NCBI GenBank assembly: GCA_002633005.1
Contig: NMRA01000029.1
Location: 1,280,691 to 1,344,690 of the forward strand
Source: Phoronis australis
Lineage: Eukaryota; Animalia; Phoronida
Direction of reading: 5' to 3'
DNA length: 64,000 bases
In this document: positions 2,687-57,262 of the stretch, piece by piece
Layout: every line of letters starts with the position of its first letter
Position numbering within the stretch: position 1 is the first letter of the stretch
Notes under the pieces: generated by a model
What the model was told of the DNA's origin: nothing
The model's database searches: none
What the model saw: only the letters and a program-made list of their open reading frames with translations
Translations under genes and position numbers: made by a program

Positions 2687-2962
2687 ACTTGGGTACCGTT
2701 TCCCATGTGGTCGTGAGTCAGCAAACGAACTCGTCTTTGGTTGTGTCTTGGACGCCTCCGCGAGGTACCGGATTGTCTTACACAGTTAGCTGCAAACCCA
2801 ATGGCAGTGATTCAGGGCCTTTGCAAGACATTGCACCACCTCTGACCACAGCAACTTGCAAAGGATTAACACCTGGAACATGGTACACAGTGAACGTGAT
2901 CGTTGCGAAAGCAGGATATAGCAATCAAGTTGCCAGCCATCGCGATGCCACCACAAAGACAA
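2687..2962 (+). CDS. Gene A FN3 exon (92 codons, phase 1-1)
   Basis: ttttag|ACTTG...ACAA|gtaatt; SSLVVSWTPP..YTVSC...CKGLTPGTWYTVNV is the FN3 W/Y/LxPGTxY signature. Confidence 0.9.
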
Positions 2963-20900: not shown

Positions 20901-23900
20901 ACTCCTGACATGCCCCTGACATCCCAGTCAAGCATAAATCGTGAAAAATGCACATTTTTGTACATGGAAATTCAGTTTCTCGCCATTGGCTATCATGTTG
21001 CCGCATTAGGTTGATATCGATTTGTTTAGTGAAGGTATGAATATAATATGTTGGCAATGTGTTATTACATACCTCAAGTTTTAGATTGCATACTCCTTTC
21101 CAAACAGGTGATCGCTGAAAGCATAGATTGACGTCTTTTGAGGTTGACAAATGACATACATGTATCACTGAATGCCTAAGGTATACTATACGTTGAACAT
21201 TTGAAATTTTGATATACACAACTTTCCATTTGCACTGTGTCTGTTTCACATTGTATGATTGTGAGACGTGTGGCTTCAATGGCGACGTTGTTCTTCTCCG
21301 AAGATGCAGCTGTTCATAGCCTTGCTTGAACCTTTTGGCATTATAGATCTCGATACTATCAAGGAACTCAAATTCACAAGTCGGACATCATCGTCACTCT
21401 CTGTATCATGGGGTCACGCTGACGGAATGAAAGAGGGATACAATGTCACTTGTGATTCAATACAAGGCGATACGACGTCCACTCAATTTTTATTGACTAC
21501 TGCACTGAGTGCGGAGTTTACCAATCTGCCTCCAGCTACAGAGCACGTAGTTACTGTGGCAACTATGCTTAAAGGCTGGACTGAAGTGTTCAAATCTGTG
21601 ACTGCAAAAACCCGTATGTGTACGTGATGCTCTATATTCTATCTTTCACGTCCTACACAGAATGTGCAAACGGTAGGGTCTTTATTCAATAGAAGTTGTT
21701 CTACACAAATACATTGTTGTTGTTACTGAATGTTAATTAATCTTCAAAACCTTGAACCTTTGCTTGTAAGAATGTTCCATAAGTGCAAATGCGGAACGAG
21801 CAGTGATGTTCGAAGATAGCATCAAATGTATAGGCCATGAACACCATTCCCTCCAGAAATTTTTAACGTCATCACGCCTGGTCTCTTACAGTGGTCACAC
21901 TCCCGATGGCAAGGACAACTTCATCAATGTCTACCGTCGCTGAGGAGCCTACTTCGAAAAGAGCTGTCCAAAACTCGTCTATGTGCCAAAAACATAAGGG
22001 CATTCGACTGTGCCCCAGCGTCGAAGTGATTTGCGTGAGAAACTGTATGAACACGCGTAGGGAATTCATACGGGAAGACCGCACAACGCAACTAGTGGCA
22101 TCTTGTAACAATTGCGTTCATTATAAGATTATATCATATGACTGGCAGGTTAGTTTTGGTCGTGCTAAAGCCAGCCCATTCAACACCCTGAATCTAAACG
22201 ATGGGGAAAGAAGTAACCCTGTCCTTGAACTAATGCCCGGAATCCTGAAGTCTGACTACGTGTATACATTTTCGGTAAATGTTCTGGTTGGAGACATAAA
22301 AGTTTCAAATTACTACTCTGCAGTAGCCAGGAACGCGAAACTCATGGCAGGAGAATGTATCATAAAGCCAGGAAAAGGCAATGAGATCTTCATAGACTTT
22401 GTTATAACTTGTACACGTTTCAAATCTAACTCTGATGGAGAATCGGAGCTTCAGTACATTTTTTATTCCGCCAATGACCTAACTAATGACGACCAAGTGA
22501 TGTTTATAGGAGAATCGAGAAAACCGAGTTTTAGTGGGAAGTTCCCATTCACAGCAGGGACTCGGAACTACGTCAGAGTTGTTGCGAAGGACTCTCATGG
22601 TAGCCGAGTCGTTAAAGACACTGACTTCCCCCTCCCTAAAATCAAGAATGAATTTGATTTCGCAAAATTTTTGGTAGACCTGATTAAACCTAATGGAAAC
22701 TCTTTGAAAAAACTGGAAAAACTTCTCTCAGCCGGTAATGTAACAGAAGTTGCGCAAGTAATCGACTACAGTAGCTGGTTTTTGAACTTAGATTCACATC
22801 TGATTAGTGAATTTGAGCGAAACAGAATTCGCGATTACCTCATTGAGACGCTGGACAAACTACCAGTTTCCACCCTTCCGAGAGAACATGCTACATCGGC
22901 TCTTTGGAAATTAACATCTGCCTCGCAAATTTCCAAGGATTCAGGTGCGACAGCGGCCAAAGTGTTAAATAAACTAGTTAGTTCTTTCAAGAAAACGAAA
23001 GCCGTTGATGTTGAGAGAGAAGAATCAGAATACAAATCCAGGGATTTCCTTCAGATTGCAGGTAACATAGTAGAAGGGGCTCAGAGAGCGTTACGTGTCG
23101 TCGGAAATAAACATATCGACGCTCAAGATAGCAGGAAATTTGCTAAAGCAATGTTAAAAGCAGTAGACAACATTGCGACCACTTTTCTCAAGGAAAAAAT
23201 GCCCGGGGAGACACCAACCCGGGTGGTTACACAGTGTGTTGGAATACACATGGATTTGAAAAAAGCTGCTTATATTGGAAATAATGTGAGCTTCGATAGC
23301 GGAACACTGCAAATAGCCGGCGGCAATGCAATGATCATCGAGCAGTATGGTGGGGAGTTCGAAGTGGCGACAAAGTCAGTGTGGTTCCGGGAAAACCCGT
23401 TCACGTTGCCTTCGACGTCTAGCAATTTGACTACTGGCATCTTATCCGTGCAATACATTAGCGCCTCAAGCATGACTGAATTACACTTGAAATCAAGAAA
23501 CAAAAACGACTCTCTCATCGAATATGAACACGATTTACACGTGGAAGAGAACAGTGCAATGTCACGTATTAATTATTCCATTCGGGCGGCCTGCAAGAAA
23601 CTCAGCGAGAGAAATCCATGGGAAATAATCAAAACAAGACTGAAGATTGAAAGAGGGGGTATTATTCGATTACGTTTTCTTAATGTAAAAGAGATAAGCT
23701 TTAACGTCCACATTGTTGCAAAACAAGATGATGAATTTGAAATTGTGAACAAGACTCTAAAGAAAAGCGACAACTTTACCGTTTCAATATTCAGCAAGAA
23801 CATCAGTCATGCTAAACATGATGATAACGACGAATACGAATCATTCTCATTGCAAATACTCCCAATTTATGACAACTCCGATTCTCGATGCCAAGAAATA

Positions 23901-25610
23901 AAAGATGTAACGACTGTTGGTGCCAGCGATCAAATGGTTTCGATTGACGTTGAAGTATGGTCGCTCACTTGCCTATACTGGGACGACAGAATCGACGATT
24001 GGAGCAGTGATGGGTGCAAGCCTTCCCAAAAAACTACAACCAAAACGTTAATCTGTGTCTGCAATCACCTAACTGTATTTTCAGGGCGTCTCTTAAGAAT
24101 GCCCAACGTGCTGTATTTTGAAAAGACATTGGCGCTCTTTACCACAATAGATAAAAATCCAGTGACGCTTATAGTAGTGTGCTTTGTTTGGGCTATGTAC
24201 CTCTTGACTGTACCTTTTGCAAGGTATTTAGACAAAAAATGCGAGAAAATAGTTTTCGTTTCTTTCCTTGAAGATAATGAACCATCTGACACTTATGCTT
24301 ATTTGGTAATTCTGCTCACAGGTTGGCAAAAGGAATCTCAAACCACTGCTAATGTTTACATTACGCTAGTTGGGCATAGAGGTGTCGGTATGGCGCATCA
24401 TTTGACAAGAAACGGAAGCCAATTTATCCCCCGTGGAACGGAAAGCGCCTATATACTCATGAACAGCAAACCACTCGGATCTTTGATAAAAGTTCGCATC
24501 TGGCATGACAACAGTGGCAACTCGCCGATGTGGTATTTGCACCAGATCTTTGTAAAGGATCTCCAGACGAGGGAGGTGTGGTACTTCCTCTGCAACAACT
24601 GGCTGGCATCCGACAGAGGTGATGCTGCAACGATGCGTGAACTTTCTGTGGCAACAGACGAGGAGATGACGCGATTCAAGAATATTTATCCTGTGCACAT
24701 GAGACGCGGAATTCACGATGATCATCTGTGGTACAGCGTTTTCAGTAGACCGCCAGAAAGTCACTTCACTAGCGTGCAACGGTTGTCTTGCGCATTTATG
24801 CTTATGTTTACTACCATGGCGGCAGACATAATTTTCTTTCAGTTGCCCAGCGAGTTAGTTGAAGACGCCAACGACATCTCATGGCAGGAGCTTTTGACCA
24901 AATGGTGGCTCGTGTTGCTTGGTTTCAACACAAATGTTGTAGTACTGCCCGTGGACATTGCCATGATCTCAATGTTTCGGTGCATCAAACCAAGGCATAG
25001 TAGCATTCGTTTCCTCGAAATACCTTACAATAATGACACTACAGAGTTTGTGGACGACCTGACGACAAGTGAAAACGTGAGTGAAAACCGAACGCTGGCT
25101 GAGACATCCGTGATATCAGACTTCAGTTCTTCGAGCGCGAGAACGACTGACGTCAATGTAAATTTAAATAATAATCCAGATACCACCACAGGATGTGACG
25201 ATGGAATTGACCACACCAGTCACGAATCTTCTAATAGAGTAGACACACCGACAAACTCCACGGATGTAACAAGTGGGAACAGAAATGTTCAGTGGAAAAT
25301 GACAGAGCCCCAAATACATCAAGGACCTGGGACAATAGCGCGAGAGAAATGCTTAAACTGTGGTTTACCATGGTGGACGATCTTTATTGCATGGGGCTTG
25401 CTTTGCACAATATGTGTTGCGTCTACTTTCTTTACAATTCTATACGGGCTTCAGTACGGCTATAGAATAAGCTTAGAGTGGCTAACAGCGTTTATTTTAG
25501 GTCTCTTCTTCAGTGTATTTTGCATAGAACCGATGAAAACATTTTTGGTTATTCTGGGGATGACACTGTTGTTTAGGAAGCCAGTGGCTTTCTCCAATCG
25601 ATCACTCTAA
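2687..25610 (+). CDS. Gene A: spliced polycystin-1/REJ-like receptor (FN3 x5 - REJ - GAIN/GPS - TM1 - PLAT - TM2-5); 5' end probably upstream of the window
   Basis: Exons 2687-2962, 8492-8764, 9539-9814, 14388-14663, 21347-21613 and 21892-25610 have AG acceptors, GT donors on the internal exons and phase-1 introns, so they join in frame. No start or signal-peptide exon was found. Confidence 0.8.
4443..7918 (-). mobile_element. TTAA-flanked DNA transposon with decayed transposase, Sola3-like
   Basis: TTAA|GAGtgactccatataaaaacca at the left end and tggtttttatatggactgcCTC|TTAA at the right end form imperfect TIRs with a TTAA TSD and GAG..CTC termini. The internal minus-strand remnant FSESQNGKDLCDRKIAPLKQHAKYFVAEGNNI has stops and frameshifts. 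Confidence 0.7.
8492..8764 (+). CDS. Gene A FN3 exon (91 codons, phase 1-1)
   Basis: ttccag|AATTG...ACAA|gtacta; TSLVVSWKP..YTLNC...CRRLTPGTWYTV. Confidence 0.88.
9539..9814 (+). CDS. Gene A FN3 exon (92 codons, phase 1-1)
   Basis: ttctag|AGTTG...ACAA|gtacta; TSLVVSWKPP..YTIKC...CRQLIPGTWYTV. Confidence 0.88.
11482..12309 (-). mobile_element. LINE ORF2 apurinic-endonuclease fragment (CR1/L2-like)
   Basis: The ORF at 11800-12309 has GDFN, LDLCITN and SDHH motifs followed by IWNYNLIN..LR....FNW. The downstream part is broken. Confidence 0.85.
12422..12683 (+). pseudogene. FN3 pseudo-exon paralogous to the gene A FN3 exons
   Basis: Reads VSKMFVSQKTSTLLVVF*EPEQGKRASYTISC, with the conserved Trp now TGA. 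After frameshifts it reads CQTLTPTSWCAVT. The AG/GT sites at homologous positions are degraded. Confidence 0.8.
13488..13622. repeat. Short MITE-like element with inverted ends
   Basis: Starts catgggcggcgcac and ends gtgccgcccatg, with an internal duplication of cccactttttagtgc. Confidence 0.55.
14388..14663 (+). CDS. Gene A FN3 exon (92 codons, phase 1-1)
   Basis: Strong polypyrimidine tract, ttctag|GGTTG...ACAG|gtagtt; TSLTVAWTP..YTVSC...CQKLTPGTLFTV. Confidence 0.9.
16798..17004 (-). mobile_element. 3'-terminal LINE fragment (C-terminal CCHC-like motif)
   Basis: RVCPLCLNVTEDKYHLILSCDRY matches the C-x2-C...ED-x-x-H...C tail common at the end of non-LTR ORF2. Confidence 0.65.
17250..17790. 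repeat. Two inverted copies of a roughly 200-bp dispersed repeat; related copy at about 49735-49995
   Basis: Shared words gggggggctcgaattt, gtggacttt and ctc(c/t)gaggcg..ccttt run forward at 17271-17460 and 49763-49990 and reverse-complemented at 17570-17790. Confidence 0.6.
18420..19130 (-). mobile_element. Gypsy (Gmr1-like) pol remnant: post-protease linker and integrase zinc-binding region
   Basis: AVTTRAQ...FKDAQHEDSSMKKLW, then IVVPNSLRKSLIRVAHESILGGYLGVRNTTGRITSNFYWPGV and, after a frameshift, CGIC (H2C2-like). Confidence 0.85.
19580..19787. other. Assembly gap (N run)
   Basis: Run of n characters. Confidence 0.99.
20111..21202. repeat. Near-identical second copy of 18487-19579, including the Gypsy remnant
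   Basis: Direct repeat at an offset of about 1624 bp with scattered substitutions. The first copy ends exactly at the N gap. Confidence 0.92.
21347..21613 (+). CDS. Gene A FN3 exon (89 codons, phase 1-1), divergent membrane-proximal type
   Basis: ttatag|ATCTC...ACCC|gtatgt; SSLSVSWGH...YNVTC...FTNLPPATEHVVTV. Confidence 0.88.
21892..25610 (+). CDS. Gene A terminal exon: S/T linker, REJ, GAIN/GPS, TM1, PLAT/LH2, TM2-TM5
   Basis: ttacag|TG phase-1 acceptor and a 1239-codon ORF. Motifs: REJ-like GECIIKP..G...F.ITC; GPS CLYWD....WSSDGC...CVCNHLTVF; PLAT Y.V.LLTG...TTANVYITLVG...VRIWHDNSG.SP.WYL...WYFLCNNWL; DHLWYSVF.RP..S.FT.VQRLSC; LPWW..IAW and EPMK. Confidence 0.95.
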
Positions 25611-25614
25611 TAAA
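25609..25614 (+). promoter_or_regulatory. Candidate polyadenylation signal overlapping the gene A stop codon
   Basis: ctctAATAAA, with further AATAAA near 25770 and 25780. Confidence 0.35.
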
Positions 25615-25733
25615 TCATGCTACAGTGCTTGCAAAAAATTTATTTTATGTTAAAAGGAAACGTATATGCAATAATTATTAAAGCTGCCATCGTTTCGCCC
25701 TGAGTACATGGCTTAAAACGACAGTCAAATTAA

Positions 25734-28064
25734 GGTGGGACACTACACTGATTTTTCAAATTTTCGTTAAATAAAAACCAATAAAGATAATTCTTTGAAA
25801 TTTGGACTGTGTTTACATTCTACCAAGATGAGCTTGAAAACACATTTTGGTGTTGTTGTGATAAATGGGGTCAAGACTAGGAGTGAAAAGCTGAAAATTA
25901 AACTTCGCAATTTGCCCCTACCAGATTTATTTTTTCTTTTTCGTTTTTTAACATGTTCAGAGGTTTATTATGTTGTTAAAAGGCTTTTCAACACAATAGT
26001 GACATTTTCATCAATGAAAACAATTTTCAACAAGTTTCTGAGAGTTGCAAAATTCATCAAATTTTTTTCAGAACCCGGTTATCTCCACAAATCATGACAA
26101 AACTCAAAAACTATAGATATTACAAACTTCTAACGTGCACCATTGTATTCAGTAGCCTGTTTTACATACACATGCCAAGTTTCAAGAGCATAGGGGGTGT
26201 ATAACCTATTTTTCTCGTGGGGGCAAGTTGAAGACTTACGATAAAAACGGCGTTCTGCGAACTCGCAAGTTACAAAAAAATAACAACATTGTAACGTCAT
26301 GGTTAACTTTCACTTTATTTACAGGTGTGTTTATGCTTAGTAATTCTTGAAACAATTATCCAACAGTCTGACACTACATTCAGAATCCTCCAGGGACATA
26401 TGAAATACATTCCCTGGCCTGCTGATTAGTCCTCGAAGCCCGCTTGGCTTTATCGATTTCTTCTCGCCATGTCATTGACTTGTCCGTCACTTTCTATTTG
26501 AGTTTAGTAACTCTAAGTACATTGCTACTGTCAACATAGTCCTCCTCCAGCAACCACATCACTTTATTTCAAAAAACTTTCCAAGCTTCAGAGACGACAT
26601 CCCATAGGCTACAGTGCCTCACGACAAACAGGACAGTGTGAGATGTGACGCACTTCCCACCCGCTGGGTGTCCTCATCCATAACTGACAACTGTAAAAAT
26701 TTGGAAAATTGAAATGTAAAATTGTTGAATATTATGTTAAACAGTTATCAATGCTAACTGGAGAAATAATTGGTATCATGGTTTTCGCAACACCCAGAAG
26801 CATTGACAACTGTCATTAACGTACTAATGGAACGTAAAGCTTTGAAGAATACAAACCGGATAAAACACTATCTAAGGAACATGAATCAGTTTGAAATTGT
26901 ATTGCTATTATATCACAGGCCTTCAGTTGACTTTTTTACATCCAATAAGAAGCAGTAAAATGGGTTATTAATATACTGAATCGAACACGTGTCAAAGCTG
27001 GAGGAACGTGTAGTAGACTTGGATTTCTCCACCAAGACTAGTTACTGACTGCAACGATAATGTACAACATCTAAAACAAAACAACACAACCAACAGAAGC
27101 AGCTGCTTACGTGTGTTGTGTCATTGGGGAGCAGTATTTGAAACCGGCAACTTACCTTAGGCATATTTCTATGCTTGCATCTTGAACAATCAGCCTCATG
27201 CACTCAATTCGCCTAACTTCACCAGGAGATTTTCAACAGCTGCATGGTCTGTAGTTTTATCGGCACTGATTTCCTGTTTTTACCGAGTCGTCCTCAAAAA
27301 CACTCAGTTTTCGTTTGGACGCAGAGTCTTTCGTCGGTAAGCTACATCGACGAGTGTTTCAAATGGTCTGACCTGAAGTTGTCGCCGATATGATTTGGCC
27401 ACCAAAAGTTTATTTGCTCCAAAACTTCCTTTTTTACGGCATGGTTTACATTTCCCATAACCATGGGATGCTTTCAACTTCGTTTCAGTCTCTTTTGAAG
27501 TCATAATCCAACAGTATTTCAAAAAACATCCGATAAAAAATACCGATTGAGATCGAAAAACAGCTGCAAAATGGCGCTTGTTACTATGCTGTTTCCATGA
27601 TCAGAAATAGCCGAAGTTACCCACGTGACTCGCTCGTCCAATTAAAATGCTAGAAAGCGACGTCATTGCCTATGAATATCCGTTAGCCAATCAAAATGAT
27701 GAAAAAAGTTTATTTTTAGCAGCAGTTCCTGGAAAGTACACAAGTATTATGAATGAACCTAAGGGGAATTCTGAAAATAGAGGACATGACCTTTCTAACA
27801 GCGTACAACATGGCGGTGTCGGAGGTCTGGAACTGCCGTGGACAAGCTGTTGTTTTGTACAAAATTAGGAGACTAAATGCGTTCAAACCAAAATTTTTTG
27901 GAAGGGTACGTTTGAAAAACCGAGGAATTCAATAAAAAAGGTTAGTTTTACCACTTGTTGGACTACAGAATATTGATTTAGGATGATTATAAGGATCGAA
28001 AATGAGAAAATCTCAACTGTCAAAATAACATCAAAAATGGTAAAATCGTTTGTAGCGTCCCACC
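25734..28064. mobile_element. Non-autonomous TIR DNA transposon, Kolobok-like
   Basis: Left end TTAA|GGTGGGACACTACActgatttt and right end aaaatcgttTGTAGCGTCCCACC|TAAT form imperfect TIRs with a near-TTAA site. The interior is decayed, with Cys-containing minus-strand fragments. Confidence 0.65.
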
Positions 28065-29518
28065 TAATTTCAATTTAATTACAACGGTCTCATAATAAGA
28101 CCACAAAGCTGCGTATTTGAGTATGCATTGCTGTGACTTGATTTGTTCACTCATTTGTTGATATCTGTAGGGATAGTTTATATGAAACTTCAAAATTATC
28201 CGCTGTATAATTTGACTGTTCAATGACGTCACGGTAAATTGTTCAACAGTAACAATGTGGGGCGTGATAATGCAACGTCGTAGTTGCTGTGATGCCTATA
28301 ACTTTCATGCTTCTGGGCCTGATGACCGTGGCACTGTTTTAACATTCCAAAAACGCTTCAGTTAAGAGTTCGGCAGTGAAAGCTAAACAACGACGAAATG
28401 CAGCTTTAACAAAATTTACAAGTTGTTACAAGTTGGCTGTACCATCGTGTTTGTATATGCCCATTTAGTACTTTGGTTTTCTCTTAGATGCAAAATGCAC
28501 GCATCGATATATTTTTCTTTCTAAAGCTGCATTTTCACGAGCATCTTGAACATGTTTAAGCTTGGGCGTTTTAAAATCATCGTATCAGAAAAAGCTTAAA
28601 AGGTGGTAGTCAGTAAACCAACCCTTAAACAAGGTTGGAGTCTTTACAATAAAAGTGTAGAATATCACACTCGAATTGCGTATTAAATATTAAACTTTAT
28701 ACCACATTATCAGCCAAACATGGCCAATGCAAACGTTGAATAACCCATTTAACGCGTATTGAATTTTGGCGGGAAACGGAGGTCGGTTCCAAATCCGTTT
28801 CGTTTTTTAGAGTTTCCAGCAGTGCACTTGACTAATGCTCTATACAGCAACTGGCGTCATCGTACTTGAAAATAGACTACCTAAACGAGGACGCACAATA
28901 ATCGCATATTCAACAAATGATAATTTACTGACATTTTTACGTTGTAAAAATAACATACACATTTTCAATAAAAACGACATTTTTAATTCAGGAAAATTTA
29001 GCAGACTTGTAAATCGTCGATCTCCAGTTAAAATGCAGGTAAAATGTCGCCGAGATCCTTTGACTTGTGCATTATGCTCAGAAACCAGTGGTAACCTATT
29101 TTAACAACCGATATTTTCACGGTGGAAGCTTAGCACGACAAGATGCATAGTAAGCGAGACTAGTTGCTTAAATCTTATTTTATGGATTCACTTTATTTCT
29201 ATTTTATTTATTAAATTTCCAATTGGTTCTTAGTAAAAGCATTATTTGAACAAAAAGAACTCGGCGTTTCTTAAAAGGTCACGACCTCCGATTCTGGGGC
29301 TCTGGCATAGAGAGCAGTTACAAGGCTGAGTTGAGTCGAGAAAGGTTCATGTACATGTAGATCGATTCATTGCAATGTTTATCGTTCAGTAACCAGTGTG
29401 TGTTATGAATTGATTATTAGACGTTTCAGTCCTTATCCCTAACGTCCCCGGGCGATAATTCTCCAAAATTCACTTGATCTCTAGATTACGGATGATAACG
29501 ACTTCCCTCATAAAATAG

Positions 29519-29665
29519 ATATAGATTATTACATGGCGATGTCGTTATCTCCAGTAATCTACTGTAGAGCCCAAGGGACGTTGGCCCCCGAGTTCGATAA
29601 TGCTACTAAATCCCCTCAGGCTTTAGATAAGGGGGTAATGACTGAGAACACGTCATTATCTATAT
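29519..29665. repeat. Short element with imperfect inverted ends
   Basis: atatagattattacatg ... cacgtcattatctatat. Confidence 0.45.
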
Positions 29666-33603: not shown

Positions 33604-36600
33604 ATTGCTGCGCATTTCCTGATCTTTTAAAATATATATATTTTCATCTTTAGGGACCCAACCCTTGAAGAGGGTTATTGATGACATTCAAGTGGCCACC
33701 ATTTTCGTGTTTTTATTGACAGATTCTTAAGGGACCGCTCACGGAGAGAGAACCCAACGTTGGCATCGATTACCTCTATTTTTCTGTTTTGTATATCGAA
33801 CAACCGGCTATCATGTCGACGAAGGTCTTTTCTTGCATACGAAAATAGAATTGAGTGGCACCCTTTTCCAAGGATAATGATGTTTAGCCTTTCATCTTTG
33901 TCTCCCATTTCAGATGAGACCCTCTCTCGGTGGGGCGGCTCGGGGGAATTGTACCTTTGTTCCTCTATGCACGTAAATCCGACACTGCCAAGTATTCACG
34001 AAGGGAAGTTAAGACTCCAAATTCATTAAACACAAAACATTCGTGTACAACACAGCAGTATCAAGACATTCGAACCAAAAAACCAAAAAACGTGAAAAAT
34101 ACAATAAGATTTACCACTATCGAATAGGTGGAATTTTGAAGAACTTGAAGATCACTATTTGTGAATTAAACAAATTACACAAAATGACAATTTCCGGCGG
34201 TTATATATAACATAATGTTACTTTTCACATAGTATCACAAGAATAGTATTTCTTTTGAAGATCGTTACTAGGAGTTTTTTGTAAGGAATTCGCACATGTT
34301 GAACAAGCTGTCAGGGCCACGATTTGTGATGACCGTGCAATTGTCGAATGGGGGTACTCAAACTACTAGAAATCATAAATAAAGATTGGAGTTCAAGTTT
34401 AACTCGTGAACGGTTATACTTACTTTTGAACAGAGCAAAGATACACTTTAATTTGAATGCCCTATCTCCTATGTTCCCCCAGATACCCCTAAAATCTGCA
34501 AGCATGCTTATAACATTTCGTTTTCATAAACAAACTCTTTGGTTTCAGATTTGCATGTTTATGTATCTAGGAAAATCGACAGATTCATGGATTATTTTTG
34601 CAATTAAAAGATAATCTTGTAAGAATTCGTGATGTTTCAGTGAATTTAGTTGCAGCCTGAAGTTGGAAAAACTCAATAATCCTATACCCAAATAGTAAAG
34701 TACATTTAGACGATTTCTAAAATAACTGTCAAAGACATTGATGAAATTCGGACAGTTCCCAAAAATATACTCACATTTCAAAGGACAATAAAAGCATTGT
34801 TTTTTGAATTGGGCACATGACTGGTTATTTAAACTTACAAACAACAGATTCTAAAGGAATTAAGTCATGAAATCAAAGTAAAGGCATCGCTAATGGAATG
34901 ATTGTTGGCTCCTGATTTGCATATTTATTATCCACAAAAACTCGACTAATAGATTATTTTTGACAATTAGAAGCTAATCGTGTAAGAAACGGCGATGCTT
35001 CGCTGAACTTAGTTGCAAGCTGACATTGTGAAATTTCGACCTATCATCAGTTTCTCAAATAGCAAAGTATACTAAACGATATTTGTCGAACTTGAAAGCC
35101 ATCTCAAGGGTACTGATGAATGTTGGACAGCTCTGCAAAGTGTACAAAAATGTTTTCACAATTGCGTGGCAATAAANATTGCTGCGCATTTCCTGATCTT
35201 TTAAAATATATATATTTTCATCTTTAGGGACCCAACCCTTGAAGAGGGTTATTGATGACATTCAAGTGGCCACCATTTTCGTGTTTTTATTGACAGATTC
35301 TTAAGGGACCGCTCACGGAGAGAGAACCCAACGTTGGCATCGATTACCTCTATTTTTCTGTTTTGTATATCGAACAACCGGCTATCATGTCGACGAAGGT
35401 CTTTTCTTGCATACGAAAATAGAATTGAGTGGCACCCTTTTCCAAGGATAATGATGTTTAGCCTTTCATCTTTGTCTCCCATTTCAGATGAGACCCTCTC
35501 TCGGTGGGGTGGCTCGGGGGAATTGTACCTTTGTTCCTCTATGCACGTAAATCCGACACTGCCAAGTATTCACGAAGGGAAGTTAAGACTCCAAATTCAT
35601 CAAACACAAAACATTCGTGTACAACACAGCAGTATCAAGACATTCGAACCAAAAAACCAAAAAACGTGAAAAATACAATAAGATTTACCACCATCGAATA
35701 GGTGGAATTTTGAAGAACTTGAAGATCACTACTTGTGAATTACAAACAAACAAATTCCACAAAATGACAATTTCCGGCGGTTATTTATAACATAATGTTA
35801 CTTTTCACATAGTATCACAAGAATAGTATTTCTTTTGAAGATCTCTACTAGGAGTTTTTTGTAAGGAATCCGCACATGTTGAACAAGCTGTCAGGGCCAC
35901 GTTTTGTGATGACTGTGTACTTGTCGAATGGGGGTACTCAAACTACTCGAAATCATAAATAAAGATTGCAGCGTTTTTGGAGTTCAAGTTTAACTCGTGA
36001 ACAGTTATACTTACTTTTGAACAGAGCGAAGATACACTTTAATTTGAATGCCCTATCTCCTATGTTCCCCCAGATACCCCTAAAATCTGCAAGCATGCTT
36101 ATAACATTTCGTTTTCATAAACAAACTCTTTGGTTTCAGATTTGCATGTTTATATATCTAGGAAAATCGACAGATTCATGGTTTATTTTTGCAATTAAAA
36201 GATAATCTTTCAGTGAATTTAGTTGCAGCCTGAAGTTGGAAAAACTCAATAATCCTATACCCAAACAGTAAAGTACATTTAGACGATTTCTAAAATAACT
36301 GTCAAAGACATTGATGAAATTCGGACAGTTCCTCAAAATATACTCACATTTCAAAGGACAATAAAAGCATTGTTTTTTGAATTGGGCACATGACTGGTTA
36401 TTTAAACTTACAAACAACAGATTCTAAAGAAATTAAGTCATAAAATCAAAGTAAAGGCATCGCTAATGGAATGATTGTTGGCTCCTGATTTGCATATTTA
36501 TTATCTACAAAAACTCGACTAATAGATTATTTTTGACAATTAGAAGCTAATCGTGTAAGAAACGGCGATGCTTCGCTAAACTTAGTTGCAAGCTGACATT

Positions 36601-36749
36601 GTGAAATTTCGACCTATCATCAGTTTCTCAAATAGCAAAGTACACTAAACGATATTTGTCTAACTTGAAAGCTATCTCAAGGGTACTGATGAATGTAAGA
36701 CAGCTCTGCAAAGTGTACAAAAAAGTTTTCACAATTGCGTGGCAATAAA
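33604..36749. repeat. Tandem duplication of about 1.57 kb (33604-35176 and 35178-36749) joined at a single n
   Basis: Both copies start attgctgcgcatttcc and end gcgtggcaataaa, and differ by SNPs and small indels. The duplicate ORFs in the track match. Confidence 0.92.
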
Positions 36750-39700
36750 TTGTTTATTGACTTAGAAAGTACATCAGTGGTTTAAATTAGTTGATGGGTT
36801 GACTATTAATTACATTTCTTCGTTTTTTTCATGATTTCTAAGTGAGATTTAGCCCAACGAACATAGCATGAATGCGTTTGATTTTTTTCAGTTGAACTGT
36901 AGCCACACGAGGAGTCCTTCAAGGTGTTAACGTCACTGCTGCATGTCACAAAGTAGTGTGTGTGTATGTTTTGGAGCCTCTTTCAGAAACTAAGAAATCG
37001 ACTTGGCATGACCACATGGCAATAAAAAACAGTGACACTACAACAAGCAAGACCTTTACCAGCCCTATGATTGACGCGTTGCATGCGTAAAGAGTTTTTT
37101 TACCAATGTAGTAAACCATAACATGAAGCATCGTGCTCAGGAACCAAGTCGATTCAGTGTCCTATCTGGATCAACGTTTCACCGAAAGAGTAAGCCTGAT
37201 GCAACACTACGTCACAGCACGAGGACACTCCTTTTTGTGGTGAATGTGGCATGTCATGCAAACAGTATGCCTCCTTCTACAGGCATAGCAAGCAGAAATG
37301 TCATGAATGAAATCATTACGTCCAGTGGTGAAGGTTGTTAAGTCACTATAGTTTATTCAGATTTACGGAGTTTATGGTTGGCAGTTGTCTGATGTGATGG
37401 TAATTTGACATTTTGTTTTGAACCTTTTTTCCGCAAGTTTCTTTCTATATTTGTGTTATTTCAGAAGGATCTTTAACAGAATCAGTACAATTTTGTAGTG
37501 TTTAAGTAGATTTAAATGGCATACAAAGTGTCATTGGGTAATAATTACATACAATTGTTCTGACCAGTTAGTAATTTAAAAGAAAACATATGTCTATGAT
37601 TATTGTAGAAATTTCTTTCATGTTGTTGTTGAAATCCTGCGAGAGACTATTATACTATCAATCACTCCTAAGTACCTTGCCTATGATTCAGTGATGATTT
37701 AGTCTAATACATTCCAAAAGTAATTCGTTGGAAATGTTTAATGGATTTGTAATATTGATATCTCTAAAGCAATCTTTTATATATTTTTGTAAGACCAATT
37801 TTGAGGTATGTTTAATAAAGGATTAATATTATAATAAAAATGCTATAATATTGTTGTTCATTTCCTGTGTAAATCACTACAGTGTGTAGTTGAAGTGACG
37901 TTAATGACAACATTTTGACTACGTTTTAAGAAAATCACAATTTAGTAGGTGTATTATAACTGTCTCAATCTTTTCAATGTCACATTAAACTGGAGATCGT
38001 GAACTGGAGATGCAGGTGAACTTAGGACCAAAACTACAAAACAGAAGAGTGAAAAACAACGTACATTCAAGCCACACGCCGGGTGCCACAAGTCAATCTG
38101 TTCTTCTCTGTGTCGATGTTATCAGTAAAACATCAAGTAAAATCCAACCCGTTTTATCAGCACACCAGTTTACACAACTTCTGACCAATTTTTAGATCCC
38201 AGGCCTTGGGCAAGCTCATCGTCATTCTTTGACTTCACTGGCTACTTGTTTCTTTCCTTTTGCTGTCACAATTTTACAAGAAGATTGTACGCTCATCTGC
38301 TGCAATAATTTGTTTACCCCTGGCTGACACGCAACATGGAACAACTCCTGGGTGAGTCTTCAGTTTAAAACCCATTGTTCTCAGTGGTTTTGTCTAAATG
38401 TAGATGTTTGTATTTCAATTCCTGGTTGGATGTACCTTCACGTCGTGGGTAACATGTTCGTTGAAGCTCGCCTCACAATAACAGTGAACTTATTTCCTGA
38501 AATGAAAATAAATTCGTTTGTGAAACTTAAATTATGCTTGACGTTTATGTAGTTTCCATGGCAAATAGAAATATGCTATGCTGTTGTTCAATTTTGATAC
38601 GAAAATAACACAGTAATGACGCGAAATGTGATTAATTCATAGCACCACACTTATTTTGTAACCCTTTTCACGTTTTGTCAGTAAAAAGTTCATTAATATT
38701 CGACACAACACGATGCGTTCCAGATCGCATAAACAACACCAATTTGCGTTCCCGATCGCTCACCGTTGCGTTTTCGATCGCATCTTTCTTTCAACAGAAA
38801 AGCGTCGACAAATTAGAGATCCTGCAAAAAACAAGCCTTGCGTTATATTTTCACACGTCATTTCTTCATAACTCCTTGCTCAATTTATTGATTTAGTGCC
38901 AAAAATAAATGCAATTTGCCAGCATGACATACAAATCACCTTCGTCTCATGCGATGCCTTGCTCAACGTAATTTTTCTCCTGTAATTGGAAGAGACACTA
39001 GCCTAAACCTCTACCTACCCTTCTTCAATGTGTTACGCCTTGAACTCATGTCTCTGTTTTCACATTGTAAGTAAAAACAACGAGAATTTATCAATTTTAC
39101 TCACCTTGCCTGGCTTCGTTTCTCCCCCCCCCCGACAAATTTCGTTCTAGATCGCCTTCCGGGGTGAGATTGGTATGAAAAGTAGTCGAGCATAAGTCTG
39201 CATTAATTACAAAAGTTCTTTAGCTGTTAGCTGTTCAAATTACTGAAAATGATCTTAAGCACTCATCAACATTTCCTATTCATGCAATAACTAAACTGAG
39301 ACAATTTACAAAAAACACCATGCCGTTTAAAACCTCCAAATTCCACCACTTTTGATGGGATGCTAAAAAGTTTCAAAATCGGCCATTTTAAGTCAATTTC
39401 AAGTGAACTTACATTTCTATCGTGACTAGGGAAACTTCGAGAAAAACCTGAGAGAGTGATTTTTGTTTTAGGGATAAAATGCACTTTTAGTATTCAAGGT
39501 ATAAGCCATGTTTCTGGAGCATTGAAAATCTACTTTAACCATCCATTTTTGTTTTTGGTGTGCGACGATAACAATTTCTATAACGTATACCTACATGTAC
39601 GTGTCACGAGCTTCTTCCCAAGTTATCTCCACTGTCATTATTTTAATAAGTAGGAACGAAAAGAAGGATACACTTGGACCCTGAGTAATTAACATACAGC

Positions 39701-41171
39701 GAGATTGCATCTCAATCGAACAGTTTCCAAAATGATTTTTCATAAGATCTTAGCGAAACACCATAATAGCTCCTTTCTTTTGCTTACGCATTCTCAAAGC
39801 CTCACAGCAGTTAAAAGACTATTTAATATGTTTTTATAGTTTAATGAGCGTTTCAGCAAAGACTATCACGCCATCATGTAGTGGTAATTTTAATCAGTTT
39901 CACTGATGAAGATGACACTTGTTTTGTAACATCTCAATAATTTTAATTTATCATGTGGAGAATGAAAAATACTGAACGTACAACCTTGCCAACCAGGCCC
40001 ATAGGAAGCCAAAATTATTGGGGGGACAAGCCATTGCGACTTCGCCAAACTACCCCTATCGCCATCACCTCCCCCCACCCCGTGTTCCGGACGCCACCAT
40101 ATTTGTACCGCACCTCCCACGTCCGGCCTAGCTGGGGGGCAATCCCGGGGATGCAACCGCCAAGAATTGAGTAACAGTGAACTCACACGGAGAGTAAGAA
40201 CGAGCCTAGGACCAGTGCACATACGTGTAGAGAGATGTCTCAAGTAGCTGTAGCTTAGATCTATCAGCGTCAAAATACGAAATTCCCGACGAACTAAAGC
40301 TAATTGCTGGTAAGCTCAGTTATAATTCACTTGAGAGAGGCAGCTTAGCTCGTATACATTCGTCTGCGCTGATTCTAAGGTCAAGATTCGTATTATTATG
40401 ATCCATTGTCGGGAAAACTCCATTTTTATGGTCATTCTTTGAAGGTTTTTTTTGAAAAGGTGAGGTCCCGAGGTCCCTGGTATATAGTGCCTTTGAGGCT
40501 GTTTCAAAATCCCTCGTTGAAACAAGACCAGCAGCCCAGTTTCTGATTTGGGGGCAAATTGATACAGAGTGTTTCCCAAAAACGTACACACTGCGACGCC
40601 TTCGACGCGTAAATAACTGAGATTAAGAGCGGACTCACTGCACGGCTACATGTTACTTTTAACTTCTGTCATCGATAATTTATACATACAAAATTTATAA
40701 GTTTATTGTTTGAGGGATTACATATTTTGAAACCGTCCATATGGTACCGTTATGTACAAGACACGTTTACTGTAATGAATCGCTCAGAAGTTGAGTACAG
40801 AATCACGAAGAATCATGCACTAATTTATGCAGAATCTATGCCGGACAATTAAGCTGATTAACAGAACAGCACAGGAGGCTAATTACATTCAAGCCTCAAG
40901 GCATTTCTTCCACAAGTTATGTGGCGCCAGATGCAAACTGTCGCTAGCAATAAATGAGAGTACCTACAGACAACATCGCGAGACAAGCAAGTTCCCACGT
41001 GACTAGACTTCATGCTACTAAGATTTTACGTCAACTGAGGTACTGGGGATGGGTTAGTATTCAGTCCAACAAACAAGCAATATTCTCTGTATGATATAAT
41101 GGTAATTTAGTTTTCAAAATGGTCCTTACTACTACGACATTTGTAATCAATGTACAAAAGCTATTTCATAA

Positions 41172-44100
41172 TTACATGTGCGTGTCCTGATGTGCCAACA
41201 AGACTTGCTTTTGACGTCGGAACCTGAGAGGTCTCTTAAGAAATGCCGTTACAAATAACATCACGATTATTGTCTTTGCTGGTTGCAGACAACATACATT
41301 AAAAACTAATCCAACCAGAAATGCTACAAGCCAATTCAAACTCCGTTGGTAACCATATTGTAAACCGTACAAAATAATAATAAATGATGAGCCTAAACAC
41401 ACAACGGCGAGGAGAAACCACGCGATTATAACAATCCACCAAGGCAGAACACAACAATCTTTATCCTGCTTCTTTAAATCGTAGGTAATATCTGGAGAGA
41501 TGTCTTTTTGGGATGCGATAGATTTGTGTGTACTATCATCACTTTGTCCTCTGTCAGAATTTTCCGTTGCGTGGATTCTATTTTTGCTTTTTGCCTCGAC
41601 ACAGTGAGTACTGTCGGTTACGTTATCATTACAAAAAACGACACCCGTCGTCCCTGTAGTTCGTTGTATCAGGGATTCTTGTCTTTCAATGCTGAAAGTA
41701 TGTGACCCCAAATCTTCTGTCAAAACCTCAGAACTTTCAACCTCAATCCCATCTCTAATTGTGCAAACAGACGCGACTTTGTTTTCCTCACACACGGGTT
41801 CGTCCAGAATGTGCGTACAGCTCAGTTCTTCCAACTGTCTCGTTATGTTTGCCTTTAACCTGGGTTTCGCAAATCGAAACAAAGACACAATCGCCACCTC
41901 GAAAGGTAACACCATTATACACGAGTTAATCCCAAACAATATCATAGCCCAGTTGCTTACTTGCTTATCCACCGATTCGATGTGTGTTGACTCGGCCTCT
42001 ATTTCAAAGCATGCAATGTCAACGAGCATCGTCGTCAACAAAACCATGCAAGCGCAAGATAACCGCTGAACGCAAGTGAACTGGCTTTCCACTGGCCTCC
42101 CAAGAATGCTATACCACAAGTGCTCGTCGTGGATTTCACGTTTCATTTCGATGATGTAATTATTTTTAAATGATGTCATTTCTTTATGCGTCGCTGCCGT
42201 AAGCTCGCGAATGTTCTTTCGGTTGCCTCTATCAGTTGACAGCCAGTCGTTGCAAATGAAATACCACGAATCTTTGTTGTGTACGTCTAGCACGCAGATG
42301 CCATGCAAATACCAAGCTGATTTTCCTTCAGGATTGTCCTGCCAAATGCGTACCTTTTTCAGCGTCCCTAGACATGTCTGTGTAGCTAAAACGAACGCAT
42401 GCTCCGTGCCTCGGACCAGTTTGGTATTGCTGGTTAAAAGGTGGGACAAGCTCACACCCTTGCTCCCTATCAAAGAGATGTAGATGTTTGGTGTAGTCGT
42501 GGAATTTCGTTGCCATCCGGGGAGGACGATAGTCACGTAGAAATGACTGTAGTCGGTTTCATTGTCTTCAAGATAAACGGTTGTGTTTATTCGTTCGCAG
42601 TTCCTGTCATTACGCCAAGCGAAAGGCAGAACGAGAAGGTACAGGAACCACACAACAGACACGACGACAACAACGACAGTGTTGTCTTTAACAGTACTGA
42701 ACAGTAGTTGAATTCTTTTAAAATACAACGGGTTAGGCAAATTAAAACAACCGGCTGCTACTGCAGTCAGATGATTACACTTGCAGACTAGAGTGCTCGA
42801 AGAAGTTTCCCGCGACGGCCAGCAACCGTAGTTTGACCACATGTCTTCTTTAATGTCAAAGTACTGACATTTAATTGTTTGTGCTGTATATTTAATTTCT
42901 ACAGAGGTTGCATTGGAATGTTTGCCATATAAGCAACGACTATTATTTTTGCCTAGTGACAGTATTAGTTCTACAGAAAAAGAATAAAGCAGGTGTTCAG
43001 AAAATGCTGTATCTTTGTCAGCATTCAGTTGCAGCCAAACCGTCCAATTGTTCGATGACGAAATATTTTCATTGAAGAGTGGTGCGTATTCCGTGCCGTC
43101 TTTAATCACTTGTCTCGCAATGCAACTAATTTTCAGGTCAAGATCTTGTGCATTTAGAAACTGGATCCTGACAGCATCAAATCTGCTGACAGTGAATGTA
43201 TTGGTCAGTGTTGGATAAGCTGGCGATCCGCATAAAGAGTGAATATAATGGTCAACAGAGGACACCTCGTCAGACTCTAACACACGTATATTATAAAGGA
43301 AGAGAGCAACGGGTTTATGCCGGTTAGAATTCACTTCTAAGACTCGATCGGTTTCCAATGTTCGGTATTCGACTGACATCACAGGCGTAGTAACATTTTC
43401 AGAACCTTTCGACCAATGATAAGGGTTTTTGCGAATCCAAACTGATTTTGTGAGGATATCAAGCTCGCCTGCCTCGGGTCCAGCACGAATTGCATTTCCA
43501 TCGACTAACTGAAGAGATCCGTGTTGAAAAGTAACCAAACTTCCTAGAGAACCAGTCTTTTTCAAAACTATATTTATTTCCACATTATCTGCCGTTATCT
43601 GCGTGGCTTCCTCTCCGGAAATCTTGGTCCTTGCAATACCAGATGCAATAACGTCTATTATATCTGTAGCAATTCTCACGATGGATTTGTCATACATTTT
43701 TCGATTTTGACCGACGACTTCAAAAGAAGATAGCATTATGTCACTAGTCACGTTTAGAGCCTGTTTGTATGTTTCATATTCAATGTCAGCTGTCTTGACG
43801 TCGTTGCTTTTCAGGGTTTTGTTCAGCAAATTAAGCGCAGTTCTCGCTGCATTCTCGGTCTTTGTGTACTCCTTGTTTAAGGATGCCAGAGCAAATAAGG
43901 CTCGACCGCCCTTCACGACAGACGACGGAAGTTTGTCTAACCCAACTAGAAGTTCGTAACGAGCTTGTTCAAATTCACTATCTTCGTCATTTGTTTCGTC
44001 TATAAAACTAACAAGATGATTAATTAAATGTAGCGCTTCCTTAAACCTTCCGTACTTAAAATGTGTCTTCAACGGGCCGTCCACTGTGAGATGTTTAACA

Positions 44101-44722
44101 TACTCTCGAACACTGACGCCATACTGAATTTCCGGAAAGTTAAATTGCTTAGACAACACAGATCCAAACATGTCTACAGCGCCTACACGAATATAGTTGC
44201 CATTGCACTTTATCTTTGAAAATTGTCCTTGGAAAATAGCATTATGGGACTGTCCTAGAAACAAGGTATACGCATTCTTGCAAACAACGGAATAAAACTT
44301 GTAGTAGGCAACACTTCCGTTGAAATTCCAACCAAAACCGGAGCAATTGATCGAAAATTGAATAAAGTATTCTAGGTGCTCTTCTTTGTGAATGTCGCAA
44401 TTTCCTTTAACCGGTCCATAGTTCTTGACGGCAATTGTAACGTTACCGCCAGCATTGGCCGAGACAATGGCAGCCGTTATAACATAATCAGTTTCTGGTT
44501 TCAACGAACTACCATCGACTTCGAAGATATTCATTTCCTTTCCTGAAGTACTGAACACCACTCCTGTCGTGCCCAAACGTTTGTTAGATATTTTCCATTC
44601 GAAAACTAGTGGCGTAATATGACTACAGTGGACACAGGTAGCTTCAAGCTTGAACTTGCCATCAGCACGAGAGTATCGTCTTCCTTCGCCAACACAGTTC
44701 CTCCGACAAACAATCTTAACAC
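41172..44722 (-). CDS. Gene B terminal exon: REJ, GAIN/GPS, TM1, PLAT/LH2, TM2-TM5
   Basis: ttctcag|GT acceptor; the frame stays open upstream of the listed ORF (GVKIVCRRNC...LEATCVHC, homologous to gene A VEVICVRNC...LVASCNNC). GPS CQYFD...WSNYGC...CKCNHLT, PLAT VRIWQDN..WYL..WYFICNDWL, HLWYS..RP..QFTCVQRLSC, LPWW and QPAK are present. Confidence 0.95.
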
Positions 44723-57074: not shown

Positions 57075-57262
57075 ATGTTGCGGTGCATCGTTCCCACTTG
57101 TCCGAACTATGCAGCTGCGAGGAAAGGAGGTATATCGTTTTTTTCGACTTCCTCGAGAGTTCGAAATGCTTAGGAAGTGGCTTGCAGCAGTGAAGAATGA
57201 AAGGTATGCTATAAAAAGCAAGTATGAGGCTGTGTAACATCTTCGTGTCTGTGGCCTGCAGT
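57075..57262 (+). pseudogene. Decayed THAP zinc-finger (transposon-derived)
   Basis: MLRCIVPTCPN...GISFF, a one-base frameshift in a T7 run, then RLPREFEMLRKWLAAVK and HLRVCGL. Confidence 0.75.

What the first reader, a model, noticed from the sequence alone, without database searches (positions are those of the whole stretch)
21892..44722. Two paralogous 'half-polycystins': REJ-GAIN-PLAT receptors that end after TM5 and lack the channel-like domain
Seen: both large ORFs follow the PKD1-family layout through GPS, TM1, PLAT and TM2-5. Both stop shortly after the TM5 P-x-K helix (A: EPMKTF...FRKPVAFSNRSL*; B: QPAKTI...LKRPLRFRRQKQVLLAHQDTHM*). Established: canonical polycystin-1 proteins (PKD1, PKD1L1-3, PKDREJ, sea urchin REJ3) have 11 TMs, and the last six plus the TOP domain assemble with PKD2. 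Inference: two highly diverged paralogs with over 1100 uninterrupted codons and the same truncation point suggest a maintained 5-TM receptor class, not decay. Such a receptor might signal without a pore or act in trans on a separate channel. The genes converge, so any missing exons would have to lie mainly in 25.6-41.2 kb, where I see only repeats.
Basis: partly seen in the sequence, partly recalled or inferred. Interest (0 to 1): 0.85.

Follow-up and report, generated by a model that had tools for sequence, protein, structure and literature searches.

The report
Two poreless five-pass polycystin-1-like receptors
Two facing genes in this animal genome encode polycystin-1-like proteins that end after five membrane passes, without the ion-channel half (RNA reads confirm the early stop for one gene); the design is already known from a sea-squirt sperm protein and from fish, and these two likely work as surface sensors that signal through a separate channel protein.

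Summary
ORF A (21867-25610, +) and ORF B (44747-41172, -) encode half-REJ, GAIN/GPS, TM1, PLAT and TM2-5, then stop. No channel-half sequence was found in the window. RNA reads cover gene B on its own strand, unspliced through the stop into the 3' UTR. Gene A has thin sense coverage and no splice out of the ORF. The ORFs are giant last exons: B is Kringle-FN3-FN3 plus this exon (two joints read-supported), and A has five FN3 exons upstream. A and B are sisters, 34% identical with saturated silent sites, so selection kept both frames open. The class is not new. Ciona s-Themis-A is a published, knockout-tested 5-pass REJ-GPS-PLAT protein, and fish 'partial pkd1l3' lacks the channel domain. New here: an independent lineage with a Kringle/FN3 ectodomain, and a 5-TM clade spanning bichirs, teleosts, frogs and a newt, which argues against the published 'remnant' reading. 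Likely mechanism (inferred): a self-cleaving adhesion or recognition co-receptor acting through a separate polycystin channel. New variant of a known kind; interest 0.5.

The parts
21892..25610 (+). Gene A last exon: linker, second half of REJ (22014-22619), GAIN, GPS motif with H-L-T (23967-24083), TM1 (24162-24218), PLAT (24303-24614), TM2, TM3, low-complexity loop, TM4 (25386-25442), TM5 (about 25467-25574), stop 25608-25610 overlapping an AATAAA
   Evidence: thin sense-strand RNA coverage in runs X1 and X2
21347..21613 (+). Gene A FN3 exon (phase 1-1); joint to the last exon inferred, not seen in reads
   Evidence: Pfam fn3 E 1.9e-8; AG/GT borders and open frame
14388..14663 (+). Gene A FN3 exon (inferred part of gene A)
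9539..9814 (+). Gene A FN3 exon (inferred part of gene A)
8492..8764 (+). Gene A FN3 exon (inferred part of gene A)
2687..2962 (+). Gene A FN3 exon (inferred part of gene A); the gene's 5' end was not found and probably lies before the window start
12440..12563 (+). Decayed copy of an FN3 exon with stops in all three frames
   Evidence: blastn 74% to the exon at 2.7 kb; translation
41172..44722 (-). Gene B last exon: second half of REJ (44714-44334), GAIN, GPS motif with H-L-T (42872-42756), TM1, PLAT (42536-42228), TM2-5, stop 41174-41172; the 3' UTR runs on to at least 40900
   Evidence: continuous stranded RNA coverage through the stop
45453..45731 (-). Gene B second FN3 exon, spliced to the last exon (GT-AG intron of 730 bases)
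   Evidence: Pfam fn3 E 4.3e-11; joint in 2 reads of X1 and 4 of X2
48306..48554 (-). Gene B first FN3 exon, spliced to the second
   Evidence: Pfam fn3 E 0.0013; loose ends of 10 and 4 reads at 45734 map to 48309
48873..49130 (-). Kringle exon, phase 1-1, inferred part of gene B
   Evidence: Pfam Kringle E 1.3e-6, below the curated cut-off; borders and open frame; not covered by a read lay
51550..51635 (-). Candidate first coding exon of gene B (ATG, basic stretch, hydrophobic stretch, donor site); speculative
   Evidence: read by eye, translated; no reads laid here
25611..41171 (.). Interval between the two stops: no channel-domain coding sequence found; one scaffold joint at 35177

Best explanation
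A and B are two transcribed, long-diverged sister genes whose proteins contain only the N-terminal receptor half of a polycystin-1-type protein, and they likely act as poreless adhesion or recognition co-receptors that pass their signal to a separate full-length polycystin channel. Shown: the domain order (FN3 repeats, with a likely Kringle in B, then half-REJ, GAIN/GPS, TM1, PLAT, TM2-5, stop); B's stop in spliced mRNA; purifying selection on both frames; the H-L-T cleavage triad in both. Inferred from the family: the GAIN domain self-cleaves at HL/T, the ectodomain stays attached non-covalently to a five-helix membrane anchor, and PLAT, the long TM3-TM4 loop and a tail of a few residues face the cytoplasm. 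Without S1-S6, the TOP domain and the long C-tail, the protein cannot fill a slot in a PKD2-type tetramer. Ligand or force on the ectodomain would therefore be relayed sideways to an 11-TM polycystin/PKD2 channel, as proposed for s-Themis-A, or through PLAT. Origin (inferred, untested): one 3' truncation of an 11-TM gene at the NTD/CTD boundary, possibly through a retrocopied short transcript landing behind FN3 exons, followed by duplication and inversion.
For: Gene B: 265 and 244 reads laid in X1 and X2, only 12 and 6 partly laid. Depth is 8.25 and 7.77 in the bin holding the stop and 0 in the intron bins 44741-45074. The only joint and the only loose end listed are the two FN3 splices. Gene A: none of the 15 joints listed has an end in the ORF, and an AATAAA overlaps the stop. 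No channel-half sequence in the window. Over 1148 aligned codons of A and B, nucleotide identity is 0.49/0.61/0.34 at codon positions 1/2/3, fourfold sites agree in 36 of 147 (chance level), and amino-acid identity is 49% in PLAT and in TM4-5 against 23% in the loop. A+B form a clade (FastTree 1.0; SH-aLRT 100). TM1-5 is a structural domain of its own, and the C-half alone gives channel activity (PMC8357825, passages). PC1 is cut in the TM5-S1 loop, and PLAT binds phosphatidylserine, PI4P and beta-arrestin (PMC9672506, passages). The 5-pass s-Themis-A is needed for full self-sterility, and its authors suggest it indirectly supports the 11-pass s-Themis-B channel.
Against: No partner, ligand, protein product or cell type was shown. 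The organism's genome is not held, so the presence of an 11-TM partner or PKD2 was not checked. Gene A's sense depth is only 0.2-6 per bin and is exceeded by antisense reads (up to 19-21) at 24.4-24.9 kb. Its FN3-to-last-exon joint was not seen, and 176 loose ends were not displayed. A and B keep 67 and 63 of 79 family-conserved columns against a median of 72 and a 5th percentile of 64.5 among 91 long-tailed relatives, so constraint is at the low end. Read variants are 7 replacement to 6 silent (B: 5 to 3 of all 8 listed; A: 2 to 3 of 5 shown from a cut list), P=0.09 against an assumed neutral silent share of 0.26: inconclusive. In PC1 the cleaved stalk is modelled to act on the TOP domain, which these proteins lack, so that route needs a partner in trans.
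Confidence: 0.5

Rival explanations
1. The 5-TM proteins are real and selected but work without any channel: as cleavable adhesion or matrix anchors, or as receptors that signal only through PLAT (lipid or arrestin binding) and the cytoplasmic loop, or as a source of shed ectodomain.
For: All structural and expression evidence above fits this equally well. The TOP domain, pore and C-tail are absent. PLAT is among the best-kept parts, 49% identical between A and B. Sea urchin REJ proteins with 0-2 TMs show that ectodomain-only functions exist in the family.
Against: Keeping TM2-5 at 48-49% identity is more than an anchor needs. The one tested 5-pass relative acts in the same pathway as an 11-pass channel.
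Confidence: 0.3
2. Gene A (less likely B) also has, or mainly has, an 11-TM isoform whose channel exons lie outside the window or in unassembled sequence; the 5-TM form is a short isoform.
For: A's 3' end is thinly covered (sense depth 1.8 and 1.7 in the last bin) and its loose ends were not all shown. The assembly has a scaffold joint at 35177 between the genes. Some short-tailed database relatives look like split gene models (P0038 beside P0043, P0121 beside P0095).
Against: B shows no joint or loose end near TM5 at depth about 4-10 in two runs. A's intron would have to span all of gene B. The joint at 35177 is flanked by a 1.57-kb, 96%-identical overlap, which suggests overlapping contigs, not a gap. 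A's stop overlaps a poly(A) signal.
Confidence: 0.1
3. The genes lost their channel halves recently and are transcribed remnants on the way to loss, as was suggested for fish pkd1l3.
For: Long stem (1.09) and fast evolution, low-end retention of conserved columns, replacement variants in the reads, antisense transcription over A, a decayed FN3 exon in A.
Against: Two recent, separate losses at the same boundary would be needed, since A and B are saturated at silent sites. About 4% of point changes would make a stop, yet both 1.2-k-codon frames are open, and B's reads show no stop or indel.
Confidence: 0.1

Closest known systems
s-Themis-A of Ciona intestinalis type A (PMC9265791, PMC7018956; passages read)
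   Same: REJ, GPS, LH2/PLAT and a 5-pass membrane domain with no PKD channel; shown to be functional by TALEN targeting.
   Different: s-Themis-A has a hypervariable N-terminus and a fibrinogen-like v-Themis gene antisense in intron 1. Here the ectodomain is Kringle/FN3, no fibrinogen-like ORF was found on the antisense strands, and B's reads are mostly 99% or more identical to the assembly. Sequence relationship to s-Themis-A was not tested.
Ray-finned fish 'partial pkd1l3' (PMC5318412; passages read) and the 5-TM clade found here (P0002, P0003, P0040, P0052, P0045, P0081, P0156, P0167)
   Same: GPS, PLAT, five TMs, ending 14-26 residues behind the same TM5 position.
   Different: C-type lectin instead of REJ/FN3 in zebrafish and Astyanax. 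It is a separate vertebrate branch of the tree, so the truncation is most likely convergent. That these database proteins are the paper's pkd1l3 is inferred from length and domains; synteny was not checked.
Canonical 11-TM polycystin-1 family (human PKD1, PDB 6A70; mollusc PKD1L2-like proteins such as P0043, P0061, P0064)
   Same: Homologous from mid-REJ to TM5; GPS with H-L-T, the triad found in 68 of 91 long-tailed relatives; best fold matches are PC1/PC2 structures.
   Different: No S1-S6, TOP domain or long C-tail (92 of 113 relatives carry 408 or more residues behind TM5); first half of REJ replaced by FN3 exons; a single exon from mid-REJ to the stop.
Sea urchin SpREJ1, 2, 7, 8, 9, 10 (PMC1934368; parts 1-2 of 4 and passages read)
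   Same: REJ-family proteins with reduced TM numbers, from full-length cDNAs, all transcribed.
   Different: They have 0, 1, 2 or 6 predicted TMs; none has five.

Membership tests
Polycystin-1 (PKD1/REJ) family, broad sense | REJ domain | tested here: met
   Second half only: Pfam REJ E 8.9e-11 in A (above cut-off), E 0.0013 in B (below cut-off)
Polycystin-1 (PKD1/REJ) family, broad sense | GAIN/GPS motif with cleavage triad before TM1 | tested here: met
   Pfam GPS in both; C-x-C-N-H-L-T in both. Cleavage itself not testable here
Polycystin-1 (PKD1/REJ) family, broad sense | PLAT/LH2 domain directly behind TM1 | tested here: met
   Pfam E 1.5e-18 and 8.7e-17; model
Canonical 11-TM polycystin-1 channel subunit | TOP (Polycystin_dom) and S1-S6 (PKD_channel) behind TM5 | tested here: not met
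   B's mRNA reads through the stop
Canonical 11-TM polycystin-1 channel subunit | Long cytoplasmic C-tail | tested here: not met
   6 (A) and 15 (B) residues behind the aligned TM5 end
s-Themis-A-type self-recognition receptor | REJ-GPS-LH2 with 5-pass TM and no channel | tested here: met
   against the description
s-Themis-A-type self-recognition receptor | Fibrinogen-like partner gene antisense in the first intron | tested here: inconclusive
   0 of 149 antisense ORFs of 55 aa or more hit a fibrinogen family, but A's first intron is probably outside the window and B's 5' end is only a candidate
s-Themis-A-type self-recognition receptor | Hypervariable N-terminal region | tested here: inconclusive
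s-Themis-A-type self-recognition receptor | Testis/sperm expression; orthology to s-Themis-A | not testable with these tools
   Run tissues are coded; present in X1 and X2, absent in X3. No s-Themis protein was among the hits whose names I could see
Bony-vertebrate 5-TM pkd1l3-like clade | Grouping with that clade in a tree | tested here: not met
   A+B lie outside a vertebrate clade of SH-aLRT 99; no AU test was run

The most novel reading that the evidence does not exclude
The TM1-5 half of polycystin-1 is an autonomous receptor module that animals have cut free at the same boundary several times (sea squirts, bony vertebrates from bichirs to frogs, and this lineage, where it was recruited behind Kringle/FN3 exons). 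These proteins form an overlooked class of GAIN-cleaved 5-TM receptors that gate polycystin channels in trans, and the fish 'pkd1l3 remnant' is a conserved working member of it.
Probability: 0.3. Interest if true: 0.75.

Novelty: new variant of a known kind. Interest (0 to 1): 0.5.

Why it matters
The C-terminal six helices of polycystin-1-type proteins are enough to form a channel with their partner (PMC8357825), so what the five N-terminal helices and PLAT do is an open question for the gene behind most polycystic kidney disease. Natural proteins made of only that half, kept by selection, are ready-made test objects. This locus adds an expressed pair from a further lineage. The side result points to an easier test: a 5-TM relative conserved from bichirs to frogs, dismissed in print as a gene being lost, can be knocked out in zebrafish or Xenopus.

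Tried and rejected
No genome is held for this window, so no genome-wide search for paralogues, an orphan channel half or PKD2 was possible. The run search listed no indexed RNA holder; the raw-read runs offered by species label were laid. X3 gave no reads on B or on A's ORF up to 25331, and X4's contigs gave none on either ORF; for X4 that is no proof of absence. A homologue search with the A+B alignment found nothing among 7984 candidates. Searches with the C-terminal regions gave 10 and 5 hits at 27-36% and 28-34% identity, so no orthologue was found and dN/dS to an orthologue could not be computed. The protein atlas gave no answer. A single-sequence fold of B was useless (pLDDT 39.5). Foldseek of the A model hits PC1/PC2 structures first, but with TM-scores of only 0.20-0.35, so it supports homology, not a shared packing. 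The careful IQ-TREE search did not finish; the quick tree on 44 rows that I picked from 114 is reported. P0032 was left out of the trees because its matches were out of order. Three look-ups in earlier findings returned nothing. Rejected: channel exons between the genes; an s/v-Themis-like antisense partner inside the window; common origin with the vertebrate 5-TM clade. No complex prediction was sent because no candidate partner from this organism is at hand. Literature: eight searches showed no paper on Kringle/FN3-bearing 5-TM polycystins or on the amphibian 5-TM gene; subscription journals, including the original s-Themis paper, are not in the library, and no supplements were read.
Full report
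Verdict. The two truncated polycystin-1-like genes are real, and for gene B the early stop is confirmed in spliced RNA. The architecture is already known from a sea-squirt protein and from fish, so this is a new variant of a known kind. The mechanism given below is inferred.

1. What is in the sequence. The window is animal DNA (spliced FN3 exons, retroelement pieces). It holds two long convergent ORFs: A, 21867-25610 on +, 1247 aa, and B, 44747-41172 on -, 1191 aa. They align end to end at 32% identity. Pfam finds REJ, GPS and PLAT in both and no channel family. Each has five hydropathy peaks. An AlphaFold model of A from GPS to the end, on a 34-sequence alignment, has five confident long helices in the TM positions, a PLAT sandwich and a disordered TM3-TM4 loop (pLDDT 75.8, pTM 0.67). 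The last two helices align with the matching stretch of human PC1 in 6A70, at a low score of 3.8 bits for that piece. TM1-5 is the N-terminal domain of these proteins and TM6-11 the TRP-like domain (PMC8357825, passages), so both ORFs end at the domain boundary.

2. No channel half in the window. Of 225 N-free ORFs of at least 35 aa between the stops, none hit Polycystin_dom, PKD_channel or Ion_trans at E<=0.1; the controls in the same scan did. An HMM from the post-TM5 halves of 76 relatives gave best E 0.59 on 3338 six-frame ORFs of the whole window, and tblastn found nothing at E<0.05. The HMM recovered only 10 of 19 60-aa, 5 of 29 40-aa and 3 of 47 25-aa pieces of two held-out proteins, so one small exon could be missed; a whole 550-aa half is unlikely to be. 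The interval has a scaffold joint at 35177 with a 1.57-kb, 96%-identical overlap on its two sides.

3. RNA. Three raw-read runs (about 18-19% of each read) and one contig set with the same species label were laid. Gene B: 265 reads in X1 and 244 in X2, nearly all in one orientation, cover 45742 to 40900 except the intron. Depth is 8.25 and 7.77 in the bin holding the stop, 3.2 and 4.2 in the next bin of 3' UTR, and 0 in two intron bins. One joint is listed, the 730-base GT-AG intron between an FN3 exon and the last exon (2 and 4 reads). One loose end is listed, at 45734 (10 and 4 reads); it maps to the FN3 exon at 48.3 kb. Nothing leaves the exon near TM5. So B's mature mRNA holds the stop. 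Gene A: taking the orientation shown by B, sense depth over the ORF is 0.2-6.0 in X1 and 1.3-4.1 in X2, with 1.8 and 1.7 in the bin holding TM4-5 and the stop. None of 15 listed joints has an end in the ORF. Against a simple reading: antisense reads reach 19-21 at 24.4-24.9 kb, the splice into A's last exon was not seen, 176 loose ends were not displayed, and the lay allowed 90% likeness. X3 has no reads on B and none on A up to 25331, although it has reads on repeats in the same stretch, which suggests tissue- or stage-limited expression.

4. Gene structure. The ORFs are last exons with acceptors at 21892 and 44722, both in phase 1. Upstream of A lie five intact FN3 exons (2687, 8492, 9539, 14388, 21347) and one decayed copy; their joining is inferred from phase and strand. 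Upstream of B lie two FN3 exons (read-supported), a Kringle exon at 49130-48873 (E 1.3e-6, below cut-off) and a candidate first exon near 51.6 kb (speculative). The REJ match starts at profile position 204-208, whereas P0061 has it from position 8 and aligns to A only from its residue 427. For B, where the splice is shown, the first half of REJ is therefore replaced by FN3 domains. One exon from mid-REJ to the stop would fit a retrocopied short transcript; PKDREJ is an intronless precedent (PMC1934368). I could not test this, as no intron positions of relatives were fetched.

5. Selection. Over 1148 aligned codons, fourfold sites agree in 36 of 147 (chance level), while amino-acid identity is 34% overall, 49% in PLAT, 48% in TM2-3, 49% in TM4-5 and 23% in the loop. 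Both keep the H-L-T triad. About 4% of point changes would make a stop, so two open frames at this depth mean purifying selection. Against: A and B keep 67 and 63 of 79 family-conserved columns (median of 91 long-tailed relatives 72, 5th percentile 64.5), and read variants (7 replacement, 6 silent; A's list was cut) are inconclusive.

6. Relatives. Of 159 proteins held, 119 matched TM2-3 and 113 of these also TM4-5. Of the 113, 15 end within 81 residues of TM5, 6 have 188-394 and 92 have 408 or more. In trees A and B are sisters (FastTree 1.0 on 114 rows; SH-aLRT 100 with a stem of 1.09 on 44 picked rows, quick search), weakly next to mollusc 11-TM proteins (0.67; 77; names). The short-tail label needs at least 7 changes on the 44-row tree. 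Several of these may be split gene models: P0038 and P0121 each sit on short branches beside a full-length protein. One group is consistent: 7 of the 15 form a vertebrate clade (1.0; 99) with tails of 14-26 residues, from teleosts (Brachyhypopomus, Astyanax, Pleuronectes, Albula), a bichir (Erpetoichthys; Polypterus in its cluster), a frog (Rhinoderma) and a newt (Pleurodeles). Two long proteins fall in that clade. P0018 (Pelobates cultripes) has two GPS and two PLAT domains; its first part is 97% identical to a separate 1123-aa model from P. fuscus, so it looks like a 5-TM gene fused by annotation to a tandem 11-TM gene. P0036 (Amia, 'partial') carries a channel domain; it is either a chimeric model or a real 11-TM member, which would mean several losses. 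These are database gene models, not checked against transcripts.

7. What is known. s-Themis-A, -B and -B2 of Ciona have REJ, GPS and LH2 with a 5-pass (A) or 11-pass (B, B2) membrane domain. Targeting s-Themis-A allowed self-fertilisation with a delay, and the authors suggest that it indirectly supports the B/B2 channel (PMC9265791 and PMC7018956, passages). Zebrafish, three other teleosts and gar have a pkd1l3-like locus without the channel domain (zebrafish model 1083 aa: lectin, GPS, PLAT), read by the authors as a gene being lost (PMC5318412, passages). Sea urchin REJ proteins have 0, 1, 2, 6 or 11 TMs (PMC1934368, parts 1-2 of 4). PC1 is also cut by proteases in the TM5-S1 loop (PMC9672506, passages). 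A and B work like s-Themis-A in layout; membership in that system is not shown (no antisense fibrinogen-like ORF among 149 scanned; no hypervariability in the part laid).

8. Mechanism. Most likely (0.5): self-cleaving adhesion or recognition co-receptors with a five-helix anchor and cytoplasmic PLAT, which cannot join a channel tetramer and relay the signal to a separate 11-TM polycystin/PKD2 channel. Shown: anatomy, B's mRNA, selection, cleavage motif. Inferred: cleavage, topology, partner. Rivals: channel-independent adhesion or PLAT signalling (0.3), an 11-TM isoform with distant exons (0.1), decaying remnants (0.1). Taken together, the chance that both are maintained 5-TM proteins is about 0.8.

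9. Novelty and interest. The 5-TM layout is published and has been tested once. New are this independent, expressed pair with a Kringle/FN3 ectodomain and the evidence that the same cut is conserved across bony vertebrates (a split of over 400 million years; date recalled, not from a call). Eight literature searches showed no paper that draws these cases together, but subscription journals are not covered.

Noticed in passing
P0002, P0003, P0040, P0052, P0045/P0160, P0081, P0156/P0162, P0167 (database proteins): A 5-TM polycystin-1-like clade across teleosts, bichirs, frogs and a newt, all ending 14-26 residues behind TM5; in Pelobates it appears to lie in tandem before an 11-TM gene (fused model P0018). 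This argues that the fish 'pkd1l3 remnant' is an old, conserved gene and perhaps a paralogue of PKD1L3. The Amia model P0036 has a channel domain and needs checking.
   Followed up: partly
window 23949-25331: Antisense reads over the PLAT-TM3 part of gene A outnumber sense reads in X1 and X2 (19.2 against 0.17 and 21.2 against 2.16 in one bin); 8 of 9 molecules end at 25069 in X2. Source unknown.
   Followed up: no
window 18487-19579 / 20111-21202; 33604-35176 / 35178-36749; 61260-61631 / 61633-62004: Near-identical direct duplicates (96-99%) on both sides of N gaps: probably haplotype overlaps at scaffold joints, an assembly artefact.
   Followed up: partly
window 12440-12563: Decayed FN3 exon among the intact ones of gene A: the FN3 array grew by exon duplication (the four 5' copies are 69-75% alike in DNA) and lost one copy.
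   Followed up: partly
window about 21660-21675: Possible 12-base micro-exon (AG and GT borders, phase 1-1) between A's last FN3 exon and its last exon, seen by eye; it could explain why no direct joint was listed.
   Followed up: no
window 59514-60802 (+); 11800-12390 (-); 52584-53431 (+); 18594-18827 and 20218-20451 (-); 57067-57234 (+): Transposable-element pieces: RT plus RNase H of an LTR element, an endonuclease of a LINE, RT fragments, integrase zinc-binding fragments, a weak THAP hit.
   Followed up: no
P0134/P0164, P0151, P0128, P0110, P0097, P0148: Further short-tailed models in amphioxus, hemichordates, a limpet and an unnamed contig (tails 33-74 residues, 136 in isoform P0164); real 5-TM genes or split models, not checked.
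   Followed up: no
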